From UHGV virus genome UHGV-1354897: a stretch of 61,496 bases of DNA, one strand, 5' to 3'. Positions 37,244 through 44,115 of this stretch are shown in pieces. Origin of the DNA: a virus. Below the pieces are notes generated by a model. It saw only the letters and a program-made list of their open reading frames with translations, was not told where the DNA came from and made no database searches. Every line of letters begins with the position of its first letter. The stretch's first letter is position 1. Position numbers and translations under genes: made by a program.

Positions 37244-37802
37244 CTTTTTTACTCCCCCAAAAGATTGAACGTTCAGCCATTTGCGCAACATATCTAAAGA
37301 ACCGATCACCCGGATGTAAACGTTGCTGACTTTCATCCGTATAGCGATCCGGTAAACCCTGCGACCAACGCTCAAAGACATTGGCAATAACATAACTCAA
37401 CGCATTCTGTTGCCCTGCTTGTAAAGCAGTGTCTGTGATAAACCCTTCAAATAATACGTTTGCACCAGTGACAACGCCTTGATCGTTCATAACCGCAAGA
37501 TAGCAAATAACATTGCGGCCAATAACTTCTTCGTTTAACGTTTCTCCTACAAGACTCATATCCAGACCGCTAAGTGCCATGGACATAGTGCTTGAGCTTG
37601 TGCTGTTTTCTTCTGTAACCGATCCAACATCCCCTAGAGTGCCTACACCAAGAAAAGTCTGACCATTGATAATAACAGTTCCTGTTCCAGTATGAACGCG
37701 GGTTATACCGGAAGGGAAGTCTATTTCCGCTGCCAACACTAGCGCAACGTTTGGTTGCTCCATTGCGCTAAGAAGGCTGTCGCTAAACGGACTGAATAAC
37801 AT
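37218..37802 (-). CDS. minor tail protein
   Basis: Position between tape measure and J-like gene; translationally coupled to neighbours. Confidence 0.55.
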   Translation of the reverse strand: MLFSPFSDSLLSAMEQPNVALVLAAEIDFPSGITRVHTGTGTVIINGQTFLGVGTLGDVGSVTEENSTSSSTMSMALSGLDMSLVGETLNEEVIGRNVICYLAVMNDQGVVTGANVLFEGFITDTALQAGQQNALSYVIANVFERWSQGLPDRYTDESQQRLHPGDRFFRYVAQMAERSIFWGSKKDAPGFTYE

Positions 37803-38386
37803 TAAAATGCCTCCGAGAATTTTAAAGTAAAGGAGTTATTAAAAGCAGGCTGACGTTTAACTCCATTTGTGTTTTCGGCTAAACGGAAAGATCCTTGTGG
37901 TTTCTGAGTTTCAATCTTTGCACCGTTTGGAGGGATGCTTCTTAACATCGGGGCAATATTTAAAATCACGTTACCAGAAGAATCACTCCAAGCATCTTCT
38001 GTTATTAATTTTAATTCATTGTTCACTGCGATGTAGTCCCCTTCCCATAATACCTTACGGTCAGGAGTCCAGCCCTTAGTTGACAAAGTTGTCCCAGTGT
38101 TATTTGCCCCATTAACCACAGGTGATCCCATTGGAGGTCGACCCCAGCGACCAAAATCCTGAAGCATAATCCGACCAGCTTTACCATCAAGTTTGGCTAA
38201 CGTTGATTCAAGCTTTCTAGACTGCCAATCATTTAAATTGCTGAATGTTAGCGTAGCTTCCCATCGCGATCCAGGATAGGACACAGTTTGGGAAGCCCCA
38301 TTGAAGGGGCTTGTAAATTCTACAGCGTTTGAGACTAGATACCATTCCATTTCCGATGGTCTAAGCTCTTCGGGCCAAGTGAGCAT
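37802..38386 (-). CDS. minor tail protein
   Basis: Immediately downstream of the tape measure gene, overlapping stop/start. Confidence 0.55.
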   Translation of the reverse strand: MLTWPEELRPSEMEWYLVSNAVEFTSPFNGASQTVSYPGSRWEATLTFSNLNDWQSRKLESTLAKLDGKAGRIMLQDFGRWGRPPMGSPVVNGANNTGTTLSTKGWTPDRKVLWEGDYIAVNNELKLITEDAWSDSSGNVILNIAPMLRSIPPNGAKIETQKPQGSFRLAENTNGVKRQPAFNNSFTLKFSEAF

Positions 38387-38389
38387 ATA

Positions 38390-41300
38390 TTACCCCATTG
38401 CAGTTCTACGAATTGTTCCTCGGGATGCAAAGTCAGTAAGAACTTTATTATATCCCTGCTCCGCACCATCACGAGCTGCTTGCTGCATGGCTTGCGTGAG
38501 CGCAGCATCGCCATTTCCTTGCACCGTGATATACTGAACAATGCTAACACCACCGGACATATTCACGCCACCTTGTTGTGAAGCTTGACTATCCAGGAAG
38601 CGGTTTAACTTGTCATTAGACGGGGCATTAAGTACACGTTCACCTTTATCCAATAACCATGTACCTTCGCGCGGAACATTATCAATACCGTCATGCGCCA
38701 TACCAGCGATTGCTAAGCCACCCACAGTAGCAGCAGACGCATAACCCATAGCTTTCACTATACCAGCCATAGCTGCGCCCATTGTAGCACCGCCTTGCTG
38801 TGTACCCCACGCAAGCGCCGCTGATGCCGCTGTCTCCGTGTTAGCAAGGATTGATGGAATTTGCATTGCTTTCTGTGCGGCAAACATTGCCTTATAAATA
38901 AAGTTCTGTTTACTAACACCTTCTTCCAGCCCTGACAGTATAATACCCAACGATTCCTGAGAAAAGGATATCATTCTGTTCATAAGAACTTTATCCAGGT
39001 TTTCCCTTTCCATACTTGCTTTCTTCAGGACTTGTGTTTTAGCATCTTCGTAAAGCTGATAGTAAGCTAGATCATCGGCTCGTTGTTTTGCATTAAGCTC
39101 TGCAATCTTTGTATTTTGCTCGTACGCGATTTTTTCATAGTCCGTCATACCTTCATCTAACAGACCCTGAGCAAACTTACGATTCTTCTTACGCTCGTCC
39201 AGTTTCTTTTGAGCTTCTTCTGCATCGTAAATTGCAGCAGCAAGACTAACAACTTCTGCTTTTTCCGCAGCAGTTGCAGACGCATTGAGCTTATTGAGGG
39301 CGACAGCTTGGGCTTTCGCTTTGGCGTTTTCCTTAACCCCTGTGGTTACTTCGTTAAGCTTGTTTCGTAAATCGTCAATAACCTTGGCGTTTTGTTGATC
39401 CGCCTTAATAGCGTCTTTTGTAGCTTTAGTCCTGTTTCTCTCTGCTTCTTCAAGATCGTAGTTTTTGCCAAGGGCTTGGGCTAAATCTTGAGCATACTTA
39501 ACAAGCTCTTTAGCGGATTCGCTTGTTGCCTCTGAGCTAACGTCCTGACCCATAGCTACTTTGCGAATAAGACTTCCGTATGTATCCGCATCCTTGCCCA
39601 GCGTCTGATACAGTCCCCTAAGGATTGCAGCTTGGCGAGCATTGCCAGCACCTTTAACCGTGTTAACATCAATCTCACGGTTAACGTCCCCGAGTTGGCC
39701 TTTAAAGCGATCCAATACTTTTTCGTCAATTAGCGGACCGGATTTAATGTTAAGGACAGCCTTCATATCCGCAGCAAGCTGACGCGCTAGAGGGATTATT
39801 TTCTCTATAGCGGGGCTTGTCATTTCAAGTACATTGTTATATCGACGTTGTGCGTCTTCCGCGCGTTCAGCGGCTAGCTTGACGTTATCCGTAGCAATCT
39901 GTAAGTTCTTTTCTGCACTAGCAGTATCTCGACCGGATGCAGCTCGACGCTTCAATTGTGCTTCATAGAACTTCTGCGTTTCCGTTGCAGATTTTAGAGC
40001 GGTCTGTTCCCGCTTCATTTGCTCTTCAAGTTCAGGAAGAATTGCTCTAGCTTTGACCGCGTTAGCTGCCAACTGAGCTTCTGTCATTTGCATCAGTTTT
40101 TCGCGTACACTGTCAACACTATCCGCAAACTGATTGTTTTCCGCACGACCTGCTTCCAGCGACGCTTTATAGGAGTAAATTGCACCCGCTGCCAGCATTG
40201 CTACACCAACAGGACCGCCAATTAACCCCATAGCACCGCGCAGCACGCTCATTGCTGTAGCTGCCCGGCTTGCTGCTGGTACAGTTGCATTAAGAGCAGC
40301 ATTGAGCGCTTGCCGCGCTTGTACGTCCGCCATAATTGCCGCAGAGTGAGCACGGGTAGCATTGATAAGCGCAAGACGAGCACCCGCTTCCGCTGCCGTA
40401 CCCTTAGCAACCGCTAACGCACCGCGTGCAACCTGCAAAGATGCAAGGGAAGCAGCACGGTCCGCAGCCGCTTTTTGTGCAGTAACGCCAATGGAGCTTT
40501 GCATCACCGCCGTAGTTGCCGCAGTTTGTGCAGCTTCCATCTGAGATGCTTTTGCAGCAGCTATAGACGCTTTAGTCTTAGCAAGCATTGCCGTAATGAT
40601 ACGGGCGGTGATTACTGTGGCTAAAGCTGAACCAACCGTTACAACCGTTCCTAAGTTTTCGGATAATGCAACAAACGTCTGTCCCAATGCAGCAACAGCA
40701 CCTTGAGTCTTTTGGGATTCGCCCATAAACTTAGTCAGGTTGTTTGTTGCAACTGTCCATTGCTGGTTGAACGTTGGCATAGTGCGGCTGAATTCTTTAT
40801 CAATTGTATCCGCGGCACCAGACAACGATTTGATAACCACATCTGCGGTTAACTTACCGCTGTAGGCCAGTTCACGCAATTGTCCAATGGTAACGCCTAA
40901 CGAATCGGACATGATTTGAGTTAAGCGCGGAGCTTGTTCTGCAACAGAGCGGAATTCATCCCCACGCAGAACACCGGATGCCATTGCTTGCGAAAACTGA
41001 ATAAGGGCAGCACTTGCTTCATGGGATGTTGCACCGGAAACAATCATTGCTTTGTTAATTGTTTCGGTAATGCGTCCAAGCTCCATCCCTGTCATACCAG
41101 TATTCTTCATCGCACGCTGGAGACGGGAGTACAGAGTTGCAGTCGCTTCTAAGCTTGTACGAGAACGCTGGGCAATATCAAACACGCGTTGCTGCGCATC
41201 TGCAACGGTTTCATTACCCGTACGAGCCAGTTCAAGTTTGTTGGTGAGGATAGTCCAGGAGTCCGATAGCGAAATAACACGGCTAATAGTGTCAACGCTA

Positions 41301-41506
41301 ATCATTCCTACAATTGCAGCATCCAAACGACTTGTGACAGTTGCAAGTTCGTTAGATGTGTTAGACAATGTTTTATAGCTGGAGGTAACACGTTGAGCAG
41401 ACCGCTCCGCTGTGTCACCTGTACGCGCTAAGTTCCGCAACATAGAGTCCGCGGTAGTAATCCCTCTCGCGTCAACTCTGATTACTAGCGAAGCGGTTTC
41501 GGCCAT
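38390..41506 (-). CDS. tail tape measure protein
   Basis: 1038-aa largely alpha-helical Ala/Gln-rich protein with central hydrophobic Gly/Ala-rich segment; preceded by the chaperone frameshift pair. Confidence 0.85.
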   Translation of the reverse strand: MAETASLVIRVDARGITTADSMLRNLARTGDTAERSAQRVTSSYKTLSNTSNELATVTSRLDAAIVGMISVDTISRVISLSDSWTILTNKLELARTGNETVADAQQRVFDIAQRSRTSLEATATLYSRLQRAMKNTGMTGMELGRITETINKAMIVSGATSHEASAALIQFSQAMASGVLRGDEFRSVAEQAPRLTQIMSDSLGVTIGQLRELAYSGKLTADVVIKSLSGAADTIDKEFSRTMPTFNQQWTVATNNLTKFMGESQKTQGAVAALGQTFVALSENLGTVVTVGSALATVITARIITAMLAKTKASIAAAKASQMEAAQTAATTAVMQSSIGVTAQKAAADRAASLASLQVARGALAVAKGTAAEAGARLALINATRAHSAAIMADVQARQALNAALNATVPAASRAATAMSVLRGAMGLIGGPVGVAMLAAGAIYSYKASLEAGRAENNQFADSVDSVREKLMQMTEAQLAANAVKARAILPELEEQMKREQTALKSATETQKFYEAQLKRRAASGRDTASAEKNLQIATDNVKLAAERAEDAQRRYNNVLEMTSPAIEKIIPLARQLAADMKAVLNIKSGPLIDEKVLDRFKGQLGDVNREIDVNTVKGAGNARQAAILRGLYQTLGKDADTYGSLIRKVAMGQDVSSEATSESAKELVKYAQDLAQALGKNYDLEEAERNRTKATKDAIKADQQNAKVIDDLRNKLNEVTTGVKENAKAKAQAVALNKLNASATAAEKAEVVSLAAAIYDAEEAQKKLDERKKNRKFAQGLLDEGMTDYEKIAYEQNTKIAELNAKQRADDLAYYQLYEDAKTQVLKKASMERENLDKVLMNRMISFSQESLGIILSGLEEGVSKQNFIYKAMFAAQKAMQIPSILANTETAASAALAWGTQQGGATMGAAMAGIVKAMGYASAATVGGLAIAGMAHDGIDNVPREGTWLLDKGERVLNAPSNDKLNRFLDSQASQQGGVNMSGGVSIVQYITVQGNGDAALTQAMQQAARDGAEQGYNKVLTDFASRGTIRRTAMG

Positions 41507-41913
41507 TATCTTCTCCTTTTTCTTCTACCTTTATTTTGATTTTGCATTTGACTTTCCATGAGTTTAGCATTTTGTTCAGCTTCTGACACGCGCTTTTCAA
41601 GCCATAGCTGCCGCAGTATTTCGCATTCGTATGGTTGAAGATGTAAGCCCATTGTCACTTGATAGCTGTGCAATTCTGTATAACTAAAATCTCCTCCAGT
41701 GTAGATATCATCAAATAAAGTAGATAGATATTCGAAGCAAAGCGGTATTTCCTTTTCCCGATATTCTTTAAGCTTAGGTGGCGTCTTACCAGACTGTTCC
41801 TCAACCTTTTGCAGTTGCGATAATAAAGAAGATCCCCCGCCGGGGACTTTACTATTTAGTTCCCATTGGAGGATCTTCTTATCAATTAACTGTCTGCGCG
41901 CTTTTAGAAAAAA
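41506..41913 (-). CDS. T-domain extension of the tail assembly chaperone, reached by -1 programmed frameshift (G-T fusion)
   Basis: Slippery heptamer T-TTT-TTC at 41907..41913 just before the stop of the upstream gene; the -1 frame stays open for about 134 codons and ends at a TAA overlapping the tape measure ATG. Confidence 0.7.
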   Translation of the reverse strand, partial: FFLKARRQLIDKKILQWELNSKVPGGGSSLLSQLQKVEEQSGKTPPKLKEYREKEIPLCFEYLSTLFDDIYTGGDFSYTELHSYQVTMGLHLQPYECEILRQLWLEKRVSEAEQNAKLMESQMQNQNKGRRKRRR

Positions 41914-42311
41914 TTACTATCTTTAGCGGCAAATACGTTAAGGTCTTCTCGAACAGTTGGGTTCTCCGTTAAGAACTCAAACACGTTGTCAACAGTCGGT
42001 GGCTCGTCAAAAGTCCAACCTGCTACAAGGTTACACAGTGAACGGGTAAGGATGTCTTCCTTCATAGCATCTGTTACTTCCCCGTCTTTACCCTGCATAA
42101 GTGCCAACAGTTGACGTTGTGCTTTCAATTCTGCGTCACGATACTCTGTGCAGTAGCGACTACGAATGTAGAGTTTTTCGCCAGTGTCGCCTACACCAGG
42201 AATAACCACATTCATAGGCTTAGTGTTTGCCGGATCGTTAGCCCGGCTCACAGTTTTAAAATCACGGAAGCTTTTAGCTACTGCAACTTTGCCTTTTTTG
42301 GTGTCGGTCAT
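41904..42311 (-). CDS. tail assembly chaperone (gpG-like)
   Basis: 135-aa ORF between major tail protein and tape measure, ending at the slippery site. Confidence 0.7.
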   Translation of the reverse strand: MTDTKKGKVAVAKSFRDFKTVSRANDPANTKPMNVVIPGVGDTGEKLYIRSRYCTEYRDAELKAQRQLLALMQGKDGEVTDAMKEDILTRSLCNLVAGWTFDEPPTVDNVFEFLTENPTVREDLNVFAAKDSNFF

Positions 42312-42320
42312 TTCTTATCC

Positions 42321-43244
42321 TTATTCTGCCGCTAAAACGCGGGTAATTTTGATGGAACTTGCGGTTGTTGGGTCCAGCAATCCGCGGTAGCCCATATTAA
42401 GCATGATATCACCTTCACCGTCAATAGGACGCGGAGCCTCAGTGAATTTCACGCGAGGGATTTCCACTGTGTATTTCTGTTCCGGATTGGTCGGGTCAAT
42501 CAGGTCAAACTTGATTGATGTCTCCACTTCATCCAGATACTTCATACGCAGTTTATTATCCAGGAAGTAAACGTTAGCTGTACCAGTTACAGCACGGCGA
42601 CCAGCAGACGGTTCAATGGAGAACTTCGAGCCAACAACGAAGCGTGGGGCGATATCGTTTTCAACGGTAAGACCGATTTCCGTAATAACGCTGATCTCTT
42701 CGTTGTTTTCCAGCAAGCGACCGGAGAAACCATCCATCGGTGAAGTAGTTGTACGCTCTTTGATAGTTGCACCAGCAGGAAGCGATTCCGCAATTTCCAT
42801 CGAGCGACCAACAATGCCGAACTCTACTGTGGTCATGTTTTCAGCAGACAATGCGAAAGTCATGCTATTAACTTCACAACCGCGATAGATTGTATATTTA
42901 CCTGACGGCAGATCTGCGTTATAGTCTACGAAAGTAAATGACTGACGGACAATACCACCTTTAAGGACGTTGTCTTGCCATTCACCGCGCAGTGCTGCCG
43001 CAATGAGGTCGTCAAATGTACCGAAGGACATTTCGCCTGTTACCGTACCTTCAACGCTTCGAGCGCCAAGACGGAAATCTGCGGTTTCTGCGTCATCGCG
43101 CAACTCTTCAGACTCCAGCGTCGCGATGTTAATATCCAGACCGGAACTCGTCACACGAAACGGGGTAAACTTTGCGTTCGCTGGAGTTGTGTTGCTCACA
43201 TCTTCTTTGACGTAATAACACGAATAACGTGAACCTGTAGCCAT
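42321..43244 (-). CDS. major tail (tube) protein
   Basis: 307-aa ORF immediately upstream of the chaperone pair; beta-rich composition. Confidence 0.65.
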   Translation of the reverse strand: MATGSRYSCYYVKEDVSNTTPANAKFTPFRVTSSGLDINIATLESEELRDDAETADFRLGARSVEGTVTGEMSFGTFDDLIAAALRGEWQDNVLKGGIVRQSFTFVDYNADLPSGKYTIYRGCEVNSMTFALSAENMTTVEFGIVGRSMEIAESLPAGATIKERTTTSPMDGFSGRLLENNEEISVITEIGLTVENDIAPRFVVGSKFSIEPSAGRRAVTGTANVYFLDNKLRMKYLDEVETSIKFDLIDPTNPEQKYTVEIPRVKFTEAPRPIDGEGDIMLNMGYRGLLDPTTASSIKITRVLAAE

Positions 43245-43258
43245 ATTTAGATCCTCTC

Positions 43259-43708
43259 TTACCTCGGCTCACGAGCCGACCAATAGATTGTGATAAAGTT
43301 AACGTCCCAGTTATCTTCAACCCCGCCTTTGGTAAAATCGTTCAGCGAAGTTTGCCCACCTTGCGAAAAGTCTAAACTGACAATCCGTAACGTGTGGTCA
43401 TCCGGGCACGGGATACGCAAGCCCAGTTTAAACTTTTTCCGAATGGAATCCAAGATTTGATTCTGTTTAGATGTTCCGGTGTTTAACGGACTGTACACTG
43501 TGACTTGATAGAATCCTGGAATTTCATTCAGACCGTTGTCACCTAACGTTGCCGCGTATGTGGATGCAGGTGCATTGATTGCCTTTAACCACATCTGATT
43601 CGCTTTAGGTGTAAACTTCTTGTTCTTCCACGCTATACCTATATCCGGTCCAACGGCTTCGCGTAGCATCTTATTAAATGCGTCATTGATAAAATCGTAT
43701 CCCAGCAT
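43259..43708 (-). CDS. tail completion/terminator-like protein
   Basis: Position between head-tail joining genes and major tail protein. Confidence 0.45.
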   Translation of the reverse strand: MLGYDFINDAFNKMLREAVGPDIGIAWKNKKFTPKANQMWLKAINAPASTYAATLGDNGLNEIPGFYQVTVYSPLNTGTSKQNQILDSIRKKFKLGLRIPCPDDHTLRIVSLDFSQGGQTSLNDFTKGGVEDNWDVNFITIYWSAREPR

Positions 43709-44115
43709 TATAGTTTTCCTTCTACAATAGCTTGGCGTATCAACATTGGAAGCTTCGCTACGTTAATACGCACCATGCCATTTGGCGCTTGCTGCGACCA
43801 ACCAAGATATTCAAGTTTCGGAGCATACGGGGTTAAGTTGCTAAAGTAGAAAGTCCAGTCTTTATCATCTGGCAACTGTCTTACGATAACCCTAGCTTCC
43901 GCTTTAGCTAATTCCCCAGTAGGATCAAGGCGGATAGTTTCCGTCGCATATGGTGCACCAATGGATGAACGCCAACCGCCTTTTGTGCGTCCTGTCTTAA
44001 CAGGGGTATCCTGAATCACGTTCTCCGTAAACTTGACAACAACCTTTTTGGCTTGCTCCCCAGTCTGGACAAGCACCTTTTGACTTGCACGCCGTATATC
44101 CGCCCCGAATCCCAT
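43708..44115 (-). CDS. head-tail joining / tail completion protein
   Basis: Gene order; translationally coupled. Confidence 0.45.
   Translation of the reverse strand: MGFGADIRRASQKVLVQTGEQAKKVVVKFTENVIQDTPVKTGRTKGGWRSSIGAPYATETIRLDPTGELAKAEARVIVRQLPDDKDWTFYFSNLTPYAPKLEYLGWSQQAPNGMVRINVAKLPMLIRQAIVEGKL

What the first reader, a model, noticed from the sequence alone, without database searches (positions are those of the whole stretch)
41506..42311. Programmed -1 frameshift site joining the tail chaperone to a 134-codon extension
A canonical slippery heptamer T-TTT-TTC (reverse strand, forward coordinates 41907..41913) lies immediately before the chaperone stop codon. The -1 frame is then open for about 134 codons and terminates on a TAA that overlaps the tape measure ATG. 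This matches the conserved G/G-T arrangement of siphovirus tail assembly chaperones.
Basis: seen in the sequence. Interest (0 to 1): 0.5.

Follow-up and report, generated by a model that had tools for sequence, protein, structure and literature searches.

The report
Tail chaperone G/GT programmed frameshift site
The slippery site is real and almost certainly lets a small share of ribosomes slip back one base to make a long form of the phage tail-assembly chaperone. This is the textbook lambda-type G/GT frameshift and is already annotated in the near-identical phage Seurat, so it is ordinary.

Summary
On the minus strand a 135-codon chaperone ORF (42311..41904) ends ...AAT TTT TTC TAA. The heptamer T_TTT_TTC (41913..41907) is in the X_XXY_YYZ register. 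The -1 frame is closed by TAG TAA just before it, then open for 133 codons to a TAA (41508..41506) that overlaps the tape-measure ATG.

The window is a Seuratvirus, 97-99% identical to Seurat and ECP2304. GenBank records for Seurat and SA126VB already annotate this exact join as ribosomal slippage.

Comparative evidence is strong. All 31 representative lineages tabulated, down to about 21-25% protein identity, keep an in-register slippery heptamer at the same alignment column. Four different heptamers occur, and the preceding codon's third base always matches. The 78-codon part of the extension that has no start codon evolves as coding sequence in the -1 frame.

G has tail-chaperone family and fold support. 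The extension passes Pfam Phage_TAC_18.

One unannotated extra is a conserved, synonymous-site-constrained RNA hairpin that starts 22 nt after the heptamer. That is too far for a classical stimulator, and its function is unknown.

Verdict: correct interpretation, already known, low interest.

The parts
42321..43244 (-). Tail tube (major tail) protein gene, 307 aa, immediately upstream of G (context)
   Evidence: PHROG 290, E 1.1e-81. The orthologues in L052-L055 carry Pfam Phage_tube_2. Relatives annotate it as tail subunit or tail tube.
41904..42311 (-). G ORF: tail assembly (tape measure) chaperone, 135 aa, the zero-frame product, ending ...DSNFF*
41907..41913 (-). Slippery heptamer T_TTT_TTC (X_XXY_YYZ) in the zero-frame register; encodes Phe134-Phe135
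   Evidence: Sequence. An in-register heptamer sits at the same alignment column in 31 representative lineages: TTTTTTC in 24, TTTTTTA in 4, AAAAAAG in 2, GGGAAAG in 1. The preceding codon's third base always equals X, although nine different amino acids occupy that position. F134 is invariant in 66 G homologues. U_UU.U_UU.C belongs to the efficient E. coli motif class H_HH.U_UU.Y (PMC4066793).
41904..41906 (-). G stop codon TAA, directly 3' of the heptamer (a possible 'shifty stop' context)
   Evidence: Adjacency is not conserved: the distance from heptamer to stop is 0-90 nt in relatives.
41914..41919 (-). TAG TAA in the -1 frame immediately 5' of the heptamer. These stops close the -1 frame upstream, so the shift window is exactly the heptamer.
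   Evidence: -1 frame open only from 41913.
41506..41907 (-). T extension: 133 sense codons in the -1 frame (LKARRQLID...RRKRRR) plus TAA 41508..41506. It has no start codon for the first 78 codons.
   Evidence: Translation. Pfam Phage_TAC_18 scores 38.8 bits against a cut-off of 27, over residues 35-104. PHROG 569 covers profile positions 130-256. Third-position substitution bias is [2,3,22] in the start-less part and [7,6,37] overall. The first candidate start is TTG at 41673, and it has no Shine-Dalgarno sequence.
41506..42311 (-). GT fusion coding region: 42311..41907 joined to 41907..41506 with base 41907 read twice, giving 268 aa
   Evidence: The conceptual fusion matches PHROG 569 end to end (E 1.8e-76, profile positions 11-256 of 256). 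It aligns without gaps across the junction with fusions from 9 other lineages. The identical join is annotated in Seurat KM236243 and SA126VB OL960573.
41821..41884 (-). Conserved RNA hairpin inside T: a 17-bp stem with one bulge (5' arm 41884..41868, 3' arm 41838..41821) plus inner helices. It starts 22 nt after the heptamer. Its role is unknown.
   Evidence: Free energy is -29 kcal/mol, z -4.58, and 0 of 200 shuffles fold as well. It ranks second among about 45 non-overlapping 70-nt windows of the locus. Synonymous sites are frozen: 13 of 19 codons against 6 of 35, p = 2.8e-4. Hairpins occur in the same neighbourhood in 9g, Kpn2-P2, L029, L032, EC151 and Vid5. Three compensatory pairs are seen in the 9g/Kpn2 clade. 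No Rfam family matches.
38390..41506 (-). Tape measure protein gene (1038 aa). Its ATG 41506..41504 overlaps the T stop, and its own AGGAG Shine-Dalgarno sequence lies at 41517..41513.
   Evidence: PHROG 339, E 8e-177. Sequence.

Best explanation
This is the lambda-type G/GT tail-assembly-chaperone recoding site of a Seuratvirus.

Most ribosomes translate G (135 aa) and terminate at TAA 41906..41904. A minority slip back one nucleotide on U_UUU_UUC, where the single host tRNA-Phe re-pairs UUU to UUU and UUC to UUU. These ribosomes read on in the -1 frame and make a 268-aa GT protein (...DSNFF-LKARRQ...), ending at the TAA that overlaps the tape measure start.

By analogy with lambda, G and the G part of GT coat the tape measure protein. 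The T part recruits the tail tube protein, so the fixed G:GT ratio set by slippage efficiency governs tail assembly.

- **Shown here:** the sequence anatomy, coding selection on the start-less -1 frame, nucleotide-level conservation of the slip site, and family and fold assignments.
- **Inferred:** that slippage actually happens, its efficiency, and the protein functions.
For: - **Anatomy.** It is exact, and the shift window is confined to the heptamer.
- **Coding selection.** The T stretch without any start codon has variable sites at codon positions 1/2/3 of 2/3/22.
- **Family matches.** T passes the Pfam Phage_TAC_18 threshold, and the match begins 44 residues upstream of the first possible start. 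The fusion matches PHROG 569 end to end at E 1.8e-76.
- **Slip-site conservation.** All 31 representative lineages tabulated, spanning Escherichia, Klebsiella, Pantoea, Enterobacter, Providencia, Pseudomonas, Xanthomonas and metagenomic phages, keep an in-register X_XXY_YYZ at the same column. Every fetched locus with enough sequence has one. Four different heptamers occur. FF is always encoded TTT TTC. The preceding codon always ends in the base that completes the heptamer, although nine different residues are found there.
- **Gene order.** Terminator, tube, G, T, tape measure.
- **Motif efficiency.** U_UU.U_UU.C is under-represented in E. coli genes, shifts at more than 0.1% without a stimulator, and falls in the efficient class H_HH.U_UU.Y (PMC4066793).
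- **Prior annotation and biology.** The same join is annotated as ribosomal slippage in Seurat and SA126VB. G/GT biology is summarised in PMC5009743.
Against: - No protein-level evidence for GT exists for any Seuratvirus in the literature I could search.
- No structure starts at the classical 5-9 nt spacer, and no upstream Shine-Dalgarno-like stimulator is visible. Efficiency therefore cannot be predicted, although lambda G-T is not known to need a stimulator (my recollection of Levin et al. 1993, not checked here).
Confidence: 0.92

Rival explanations
1. This is a mechanistic variant rather than a true rival. The shift is a single-tRNA P-site slip at a 'shifty stop': UUC in the P site and UAA in the A site, with slow termination giving time to slip. 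It would not be tandem A/P-site slippage. The protein product is identical.
For: In the window, in 9g and in Kpn2-P2 the stop codon follows the heptamer with no spacer.
Against: Adjacency to the stop is not conserved; the distance is 3-90 nt in Vid5, L032, EC151, PSTCR4 and the Pseudomonas/Xanthomonas types. The full heptamer, including its first base, is conserved everywhere. That argues that both tRNAs re-pair.
Confidence: 0.15
2. RNA polymerase slippage on the T6 run adds one U to some transcripts. Standard translation of those transcripts then yields the same GT protein.
For: One extra U in the run gives AAU UUU UUU CUA AAA, which is exactly the GT sequence (reasoned). Homopolymer T runs dominate the family.
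Against: To my knowledge, productive transcriptional slippage in bacteria needs runs of about nine or more A or T, and here there are six. Homologues with GGGAAAG, or with the overlapping TTTAAAG, keep the X_XXY_YYZ codon register. That fits tandem tRNA slippage, which a three-base run cannot replace with polymerase slippage. The register itself, with the run always starting at a codon's third base, has no meaning for the polymerase.
Confidence: 0.04
3. There are two separate genes. G is one, and the other is a short protein (48-70 aa) initiated at an internal TTG, GTG or ATG of the downstream frame, as many GenBank records annotate. No recoding occurs.
For: Several relatives annotate short ORFs at TTG 41673, GTG 41658 or ATG 41652 equivalents.
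Against: - The 78 codons upstream of the first possible start are under -1-frame purifying selection, with position counts [2,3,22].
- These codons are conserved as protein out to 21-40% identity lineages.
- They contain the first 44 residues of the Phage_TAC_18 match.
- The candidate starts have no Shine-Dalgarno sequence and are not conserved.
Confidence: 0.03
4. The frame break is an assembly or sequencing error in a homopolymer, or a pseudogene, and the true gene is one continuous ORF.
For: Homopolymer runs are error-prone.
Against: The same two-frame arrangement, with the G stop kept, is found in 35 independent phage records and in dozens of metagenomic contigs from different laboratories and platforms. 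It also occurs with non-homopolymer heptamers.
Confidence: 0.01

Closest known systems
Escherichia phage Seurat CPT_Seurat13/14 'tape measure chaperone' (GenBank KM236243; also SA126VB_14/15, OL960573)
   Same: The locus is 97.4% identical in nucleotides. It has the identical heptamer, the identical join (slippage at the last T of TTT) and a 268-aa product of 99.2% identity.
   Different: There is no functional difference. The window is simply another isolate or contig of the genus. Its closest relative, ECP2304 (99.1%), annotates a split ORF instead.
Bacteriophage lambda G / G-T -1 programmed frameshift (Levin et al. 1993; Xu et al. 2004, 2013, 2014, as summarised in PMC5009743)
   Same: The position between the major tail gene and the tape measure gene is the same. 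The short zero-frame product, and the longer -1 fusion made at a heptamer near the 3' end of G, also match. No classical stimulator is evident. The inferred role is setting a fixed G:GT ratio for tail assembly.
   Different: The heptamer is U_UUU_UUC rather than G_GGA_AAG, though one distant homologue, L047, does use GGGAAAG. The stop codon abuts the heptamer. I did not detect sequence similarity to lambda G or T. T belongs to Pfam Phage_TAC_18 and G is near Phage_TAC_4.
HK97 tail assembly chaperone (PDB 2OB9)
   Same: It is the best structural match of the G model among 48,164 PDB chains, with 83 residues aligned.
E. coli dnaX and IS3/IS911-type -1 frameshift signals
   Same: Tandem slippage on an X_XXY_YYZ heptamer in an enterobacterial host.
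   Different: Those signals rely on a hairpin or pseudoknot 5-9 nt downstream, and often on an upstream Shine-Dalgarno-like element. Here the only conserved structure begins 22 nt or more downstream, and no such element is seen upstream.

Membership tests
Lambda-type G/GT tail assembly chaperone with -1 programmed ribosomal frameshift | The gene pair lies between the major tail (tube) gene and the tape measure gene | tested here: met
   Tube gene 43244..42321 (PHROG 290; orthologues carry Pfam Phage_tube_2), then G, T and the tape measure gene 41506..38390 (PHROG 339). A tail terminator and a Neck1 gene lie upstream.
Lambda-type G/GT tail assembly chaperone with -1 programmed ribosomal frameshift | The downstream ORF is in the -1 frame, overlaps the end of G and lacks its own initiation signal | tested here: met
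   The -1 frame is open from 41913. The first ATG, GTG or TTG is 78 codons in (41673) and has no Shine-Dalgarno sequence. The +1 frame closes after 7 codons.
Lambda-type G/GT tail assembly chaperone with -1 programmed ribosomal frameshift | A canonical X_XXY_YYZ heptamer lies in the zero-frame register within the overlap | tested here: met
   T_TTT_TTC at 41913..41907. The overlap consists of the heptamer alone.
Lambda-type G/GT tail assembly chaperone with -1 programmed ribosomal frameshift | The slip site and two-frame arrangement are conserved among divergent homologues | tested here: met
   31 of 31 representative lineages keep it, with four heptamer types at one alignment column. The preceding codon's third base always completes the heptamer.
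Lambda-type G/GT tail assembly chaperone with -1 programmed ribosomal frameshift | The extension is a real coding sequence under purifying selection in the -1 frame | tested here: met
   Variable columns by codon position are [2,3,22] in the start-less part and [7,6,37] overall. The G control gives [13,5,67].
Lambda-type G/GT tail assembly chaperone with -1 programmed ribosomal frameshift | Both G and a low-abundance GT fusion are made, and both are required for tail assembly | not testable with these tools
   This needs mass spectrometry, western blotting and genetics. No such data were found for the Seuratvirus group.
Pfam Phage_TAC_18 (PF23812) | Score above the curated gathering threshold | tested here: met
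   The T segment scores 38.8 bits against a cut-off of 27, E 1e-9, over residues 35-104 of T. The called T ORFs of L052-L055 carry the same family.
Pfam Phage_TAC_4 (PF08748) | Score above the curated gathering threshold | tested here: not met
   The window's G scores 14.2 bits against a cut-off of 21.1 (E 0.051), so I do not file it as a member. The relationship is indirect: 36 of 66 profile-detected homologues match at E <= 0.01, best 7e-7. PHROG 313 'tail assembly chaperone' matches at E 3.6e-11.
Classical structure-stimulated -1 PRF signal (dnaX / IS3 type) | A stable hairpin or pseudoknot begins 5-9 nt (rarely 12-15 nt) 3' of the heptamer | tested here: not met
   The conserved stem begins 22 nt after the heptamer in the window, 26 nt in L052-L054 and 27-35 nt in 9g, Kpn2-P2, EC151 and Vid5. 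The lower helix at 14 nt is not conserved. Spacer ranges are taken from PMC5009743.
Transcriptional slippage recoding | A long homopolymeric A or T run (about 9 or more) as the slippage site | tested here: not met
   The run is six T's. Homologues use GGGAAAG and TTTAAAG, which have three-base runs. The threshold length comes from general knowledge, not from a tool.

The most novel reading that the evidence does not exclude
The conserved hairpin at 41884..41821 is a functional RNA element of the G/GT module that acts outside the classical spacer range. It starts 22-35 nt after the slip site and always 10-29 nt after the zero-frame stop, so it lies in RNA that only frameshifted ribosomes cross. 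Three roles seem possible. It could tune frameshift output from a distance. It could act as a 3' stabiliser or processing site that uncouples abundant tube and G expression from scarce T and tape measure expression. Or it could protect the ribosome-poor T region from Rho or nucleases. As far as I know, no such element has been described for tail chaperone frameshift cassettes.
Probability: 0.3. Interest if true: 0.4.

Novelty: already known. Interest (0 to 1): 0.12.

Why it matters
The G/GT frameshift fixes the ratio of two chaperone forms needed to build a siphovirus tail of the correct length. Recognising it matters mainly for annotation. Of the seven Seuratvirus records and ten more distant records I inspected, only two annotate the join. 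The others list a truncated 48-115-aa 'hypothetical protein', or nothing at all. The comparative table built here, with four interchangeable heptamers at one homologous column across hosts from Escherichia to Xanthomonas, is a clean illustration of nucleotide-level selection on a slip site. It adds no new principle. The only point with research value is the constrained downstream hairpin at a non-canonical distance.

Tried and rejected
- **Fusion-protein database search.** Searching the 5.8-billion-protein database with the 268-aa fusion returned nothing. G alone and a G profile worked.
- **Metagenome locus search with all ten lineages.** The 10-lineage alignment had no block conserved enough for the search for related loci. 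A five-sequence alignment worked.
- **PDB sequence search.** G and T gave only noise or nothing.
- **Rfam.** A scan of 41300..42500 gave only sub-threshold microRNA-like hits caused by the long hairpin.
- **Terminator reading of the hairpin.** The inner GUCCCCGGCGGGGGAU + CUUCUUUAUU element scores as terminator-like. However, the region has no more such sites than shuffled sequence, and the U-tract is absent in the 9g clade. I rejected it as the general explanation.
- **Lower helix at a 14-nt spacer.** The pairing CAGUU/AACUG (window nt 22-26 with 98-102) would place the structure in the rare 12-15 nt class, but it is not maintained in L052-L054.
- **Strand specificity of the hairpin.** Sense and antisense stabilities are similar, so this was inconclusive.
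- **KS_A8 tblastn row.** The odd single-piece match is not a natural in-frame variant; its locus has the same arrangement as the window.
- **Second heptamer at 37826.** T_TTA_AAA is an ordinary overlapping gene junction with GGAGG and ATG.
- **Literature.** Searches found no paper discussing the frameshift in Seurat, Vid5 or EC151.
Full report
**1. What is in the sequence**

The chaperone ORF is read on the minus strand from ATG 42311 to TAA 41906..41904 (135 aa). It ends GAT AGT AAT TTT TTC TAA.

The heptamer T_TTT_TTC occupies 41913..41907 in the X_XXY_YYZ register, and the stop codon abuts it. In the -1 frame the two codons just before the heptamer are TAG TAA (41919..41914).

From 41913 the -1 frame is open. 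After the slip it reads CTA AAA GCG ... for 133 sense codons, to TAA 41508..41506. That TAA shares one base with the ATG of the 1038-aa tape measure ORF. The tape measure gene has its own AGGAG six nucleotides upstream.

The two frames can therefore be joined only within the heptamer. The +1 frame closes after seven codons.

**2. Is it more than chance?**

I scanned both strands of the 61.5-kb window for an in-register slippery heptamer with at least 100 open codons upstream and at least 70 open -1 codons downstream. Two sites pass. One is this site. The other, at 37826, is a normal overlapping gene junction with GGAGG and ATG. TTTTTTC is under-represented in the window, with 10 occurrences against 20.8 ± 4.7 in shuffles.

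**3. Identity of the genome and prior annotation**

The region is 99.1% identical to Escherichia phage ECP2304 and 97.4% identical to phage Seurat. Thirty-five phage records match, nearly all Seuratvirus (Queuovirinae).

GenBank KM236243 (Seurat) annotates a two-piece CDS 'tape measure chaperone' over the homologous 806 nt. SA126VB does the same.

ECP2304, GottfriedDienst, KS_A8, Skure and CSP1C instead list G plus a 48-70-aa ORF. None of the ten more distant records I opened has a join. The Seurat genome announcement mentions a tape measure chaperone but not the frameshift. I found no paper discussing it.

**4. Context and protein families**

The gene order is Neck1/tail completion (44115..43708), tail terminator (43708..43259), tail tube (43244..42321), G, T, tape measure.

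- **T.** The segment passes the Pfam Phage_TAC_18 threshold, with 38.8 bits against 27, over residues 35-104.
- **GT.** The conceptual fusion matches the 256-position PHROG 569 profile end to end, at E 1.8e-76.

**5. The extension is translated without a start of its own**

The -1 frame has no ATG, GTG or TTG for 78 codons. The later candidates (TTG 41673, GTG 41658, ATG 41652) have no Shine-Dalgarno sequence and are not conserved.

In ten Seuratvirus sequences, the variable columns in this start-less stretch fall on -1-frame codon positions 1/2/3 as 2/3/22. The whole extension gives 7/6/37, and G in its own frame gives 13/5/67. The stretch is therefore protein-coding in the -1 frame, and ribosomes can enter it only from G.

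**6. Conservation of the slip site**

I fetched loci from annotated phages, from IMG/VR and from Logan/NCBI assemblies. Every locus with enough sequence has an in-register heptamer joining a G-like ORF to a -1 ORF of 90-133 codons.

Conceptual fusions from ten lineages (21-40% identity to the window) align without a gap across the junction. F134 is invariant, and it is also invariant in 66 G homologues.

Over 31 representative lineages:

| Heptamer | Lineages |
|---|---|
| TTTTTTC | 24 |
| TTTTTTA (overlapping TTTAAAG or TTTAAAC) | 4 |
| AAAAAAG | 2 |
| GGGAAAG (the lambda heptamer) | 1 |

FF is always encoded TTT TTC. The preceding residue varies (L, N, H, F, R, D, V, A, S), but its codon always ends in the base that completes the heptamer. 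That is selection on nucleotides, not on protein.

The distance from heptamer to G stop ranges from 0 to 90 nt. The abutting stop in the window is therefore not an essential part of the signal.

U_UU.U_UU.C is among the motifs that Sharma et al. list as under-represented in E. coli genes and as shifting at more than 0.1% without a stimulator. It falls in their efficient class H_HH.U_UU.Y (PMC4066793). The window encodes no tRNA, so the host tRNA-Phe does the slipping.

**7. Mechanism**

The best-supported reading is tandem -1 slippage of tRNA-Phe on U_UUU_UUC. This gives G (135 aa) and a minor GT (268 aa; junction ...AAK DSNFF LK ARR...).

By analogy with lambda, G and the G part of GT bind the tape measure protein. 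The T part recruits the tube protein, and the G:GT ratio (about 30:1 in lambda) is critical (PMC5009743).

Alternatives:

- **Transcriptional slippage** would give the same protein. It is disfavoured by the short run and by homologues whose heptamers contain only three-base runs.
- **P-site-only slippage at the stop** is possible in this genus but cannot be the family-wide mechanism.
- **Independent initiation** and **sequencing error** are excluded by the evidence in sections 5 and 6.

**8. An extra feature: a constrained hairpin at a non-canonical distance**

Downstream of the slip site there is a 17-bp hairpin at 41884..41821. Its free energy is -29 kcal/mol, z -4.58, and 0 of 200 shuffles fold as well. 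It is the second most stable of about 45 non-overlapping 70-nt windows in the 3.2-kb locus.

*Evidence that it is selected*

- In six Seurat-like genomes (56-100% G identity) I looked at degenerate codons whose amino acid is the same in all six genomes. In codons 3-32 after the slip, 13 of 19 such codons are unchanged. Further downstream only 6 of 35 are unchanged (Fisher p = 2.8e-4). All ten such codons inside the core arms are frozen.
- Hairpins of 11-17 bp occur in the same neighbourhood, in different sequence and register, in 9g, Kpn2-P2, L029, L032, EC151 and Vid5.
- Within the 9g/Kpn2 clade, 96% of cells pair, against 24-55% when partners are slid. Three pairs show compensatory double changes.

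*Why it is not a classical stimulator*

The conserved stem starts 22-35 nt after the heptamer. Classical stimulators start at 5-9 nt, and a minority at 12-15 nt (PMC5009743). In every one of these lineages the hairpin lies 10-29 nt after the zero-frame stop, so only frameshifted ribosomes traverse it.

More distant Pseudomonas- and Xanthomonas-type loci lack this hairpin. Some of them have hairpins at 5-8 nt instead. No Rfam family matches.

I cannot assign a function to this hairpin. Candidates are listed under the novel case.

**9. Verdict**

Both the observation and the interpretation are correct. The phenomenon is the textbook G/GT frameshift, and this very site is already annotated in the type phage of the genus. 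Novelty is therefore 'already known' and interest is low.

The residual value has two parts. One is correcting the split-ORF annotations that most relatives carry. The other is the unexplained conserved hairpin.

Noticed in passing
window 41884..41821 (- strand): A conserved RNA hairpin constrained at synonymous sites lies inside the T coding region. It starts 22 nt after the heptamer and 19 nt after the G stop. Analogous hairpins occur in 9g, Kpn2-P2, EC151, Vid5 and L032, but at a non-canonical spacer. Its function is unknown.
   Followed up: yes
window 41901..41896 (- strand; GCGCGC, 5 nt after the heptamer): The codons CTA, GCG and CGC just after the slip site are invariant at synonymous sites in six Seurat-like genomes. 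The same A(A/U)AGCGCGCA string is present in Vid5, which is only about 40% identical in protein. It may be a sequence element in the 'spacer'.
   Followed up: partly
window 41847..41832 (- strand): The inner stem GUCCCCGGCGGGGGAU followed by CUUCUUUAUU scores as an intrinsic-terminator-like site inside the T frame. The U-tract is not conserved in the 9g clade.
   Followed up: partly
L006, L007, L008, L009, L013, L014, L029, L039, L042: about +390 to +460 nt from the heptamer (start of the tape measure gene): In many lineages, though not in the window itself, the most stable 70-nt RNA window of the whole locus lies just inside the 5' end of the tape measure gene.
   Followed up: no
whole window: TTTTTTC is about two-fold depleted on both strands taken together. 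There are 10 occurrences against 20.8 ± 4.7 in dinucleotide-preserving shuffles, and every shuffle had at least 10.
   Followed up: partly
window 37826..37820 (- strand): This is the second site that passes the heptamer-plus-long--1-ORF filter (T_TTA_AAA, 15 nt before a stop). The downstream gene (37802..37218) has its own GGAGG and ATG overlapping the stop, so it is an ordinary gene junction. The three consecutive 194-aa ORFs listed there are unrelated, and the third is over-extended.
   Followed up: yes
relatives: MZ501071, OR880647, PP627279, MK672798, PQ202980, NC_024146, NC_042120, MW464860 and others: Most database records of this chaperone pair annotate a truncated downstream ORF or none, instead of the frameshifted fusion. 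Only Seurat KM236243 and SA126VB OL960573, of the 17 inspected, carry the join.
   Followed up: yes
one search hits MH230177 (Aeromonas phage SD04) and KY982929 (Cronobacter phage CSP1): Two records labelled with Aeromonas and Cronobacter hosts are 97.7% identical to the E. coli Seuratviruses over this region. This suggests either a broad host range or questionable host labels.
   Followed up: no
whole window: ARAGORN found no tRNA or tmRNA genes, so slippage must use the host tRNA-Phe.
   Followed up: yes
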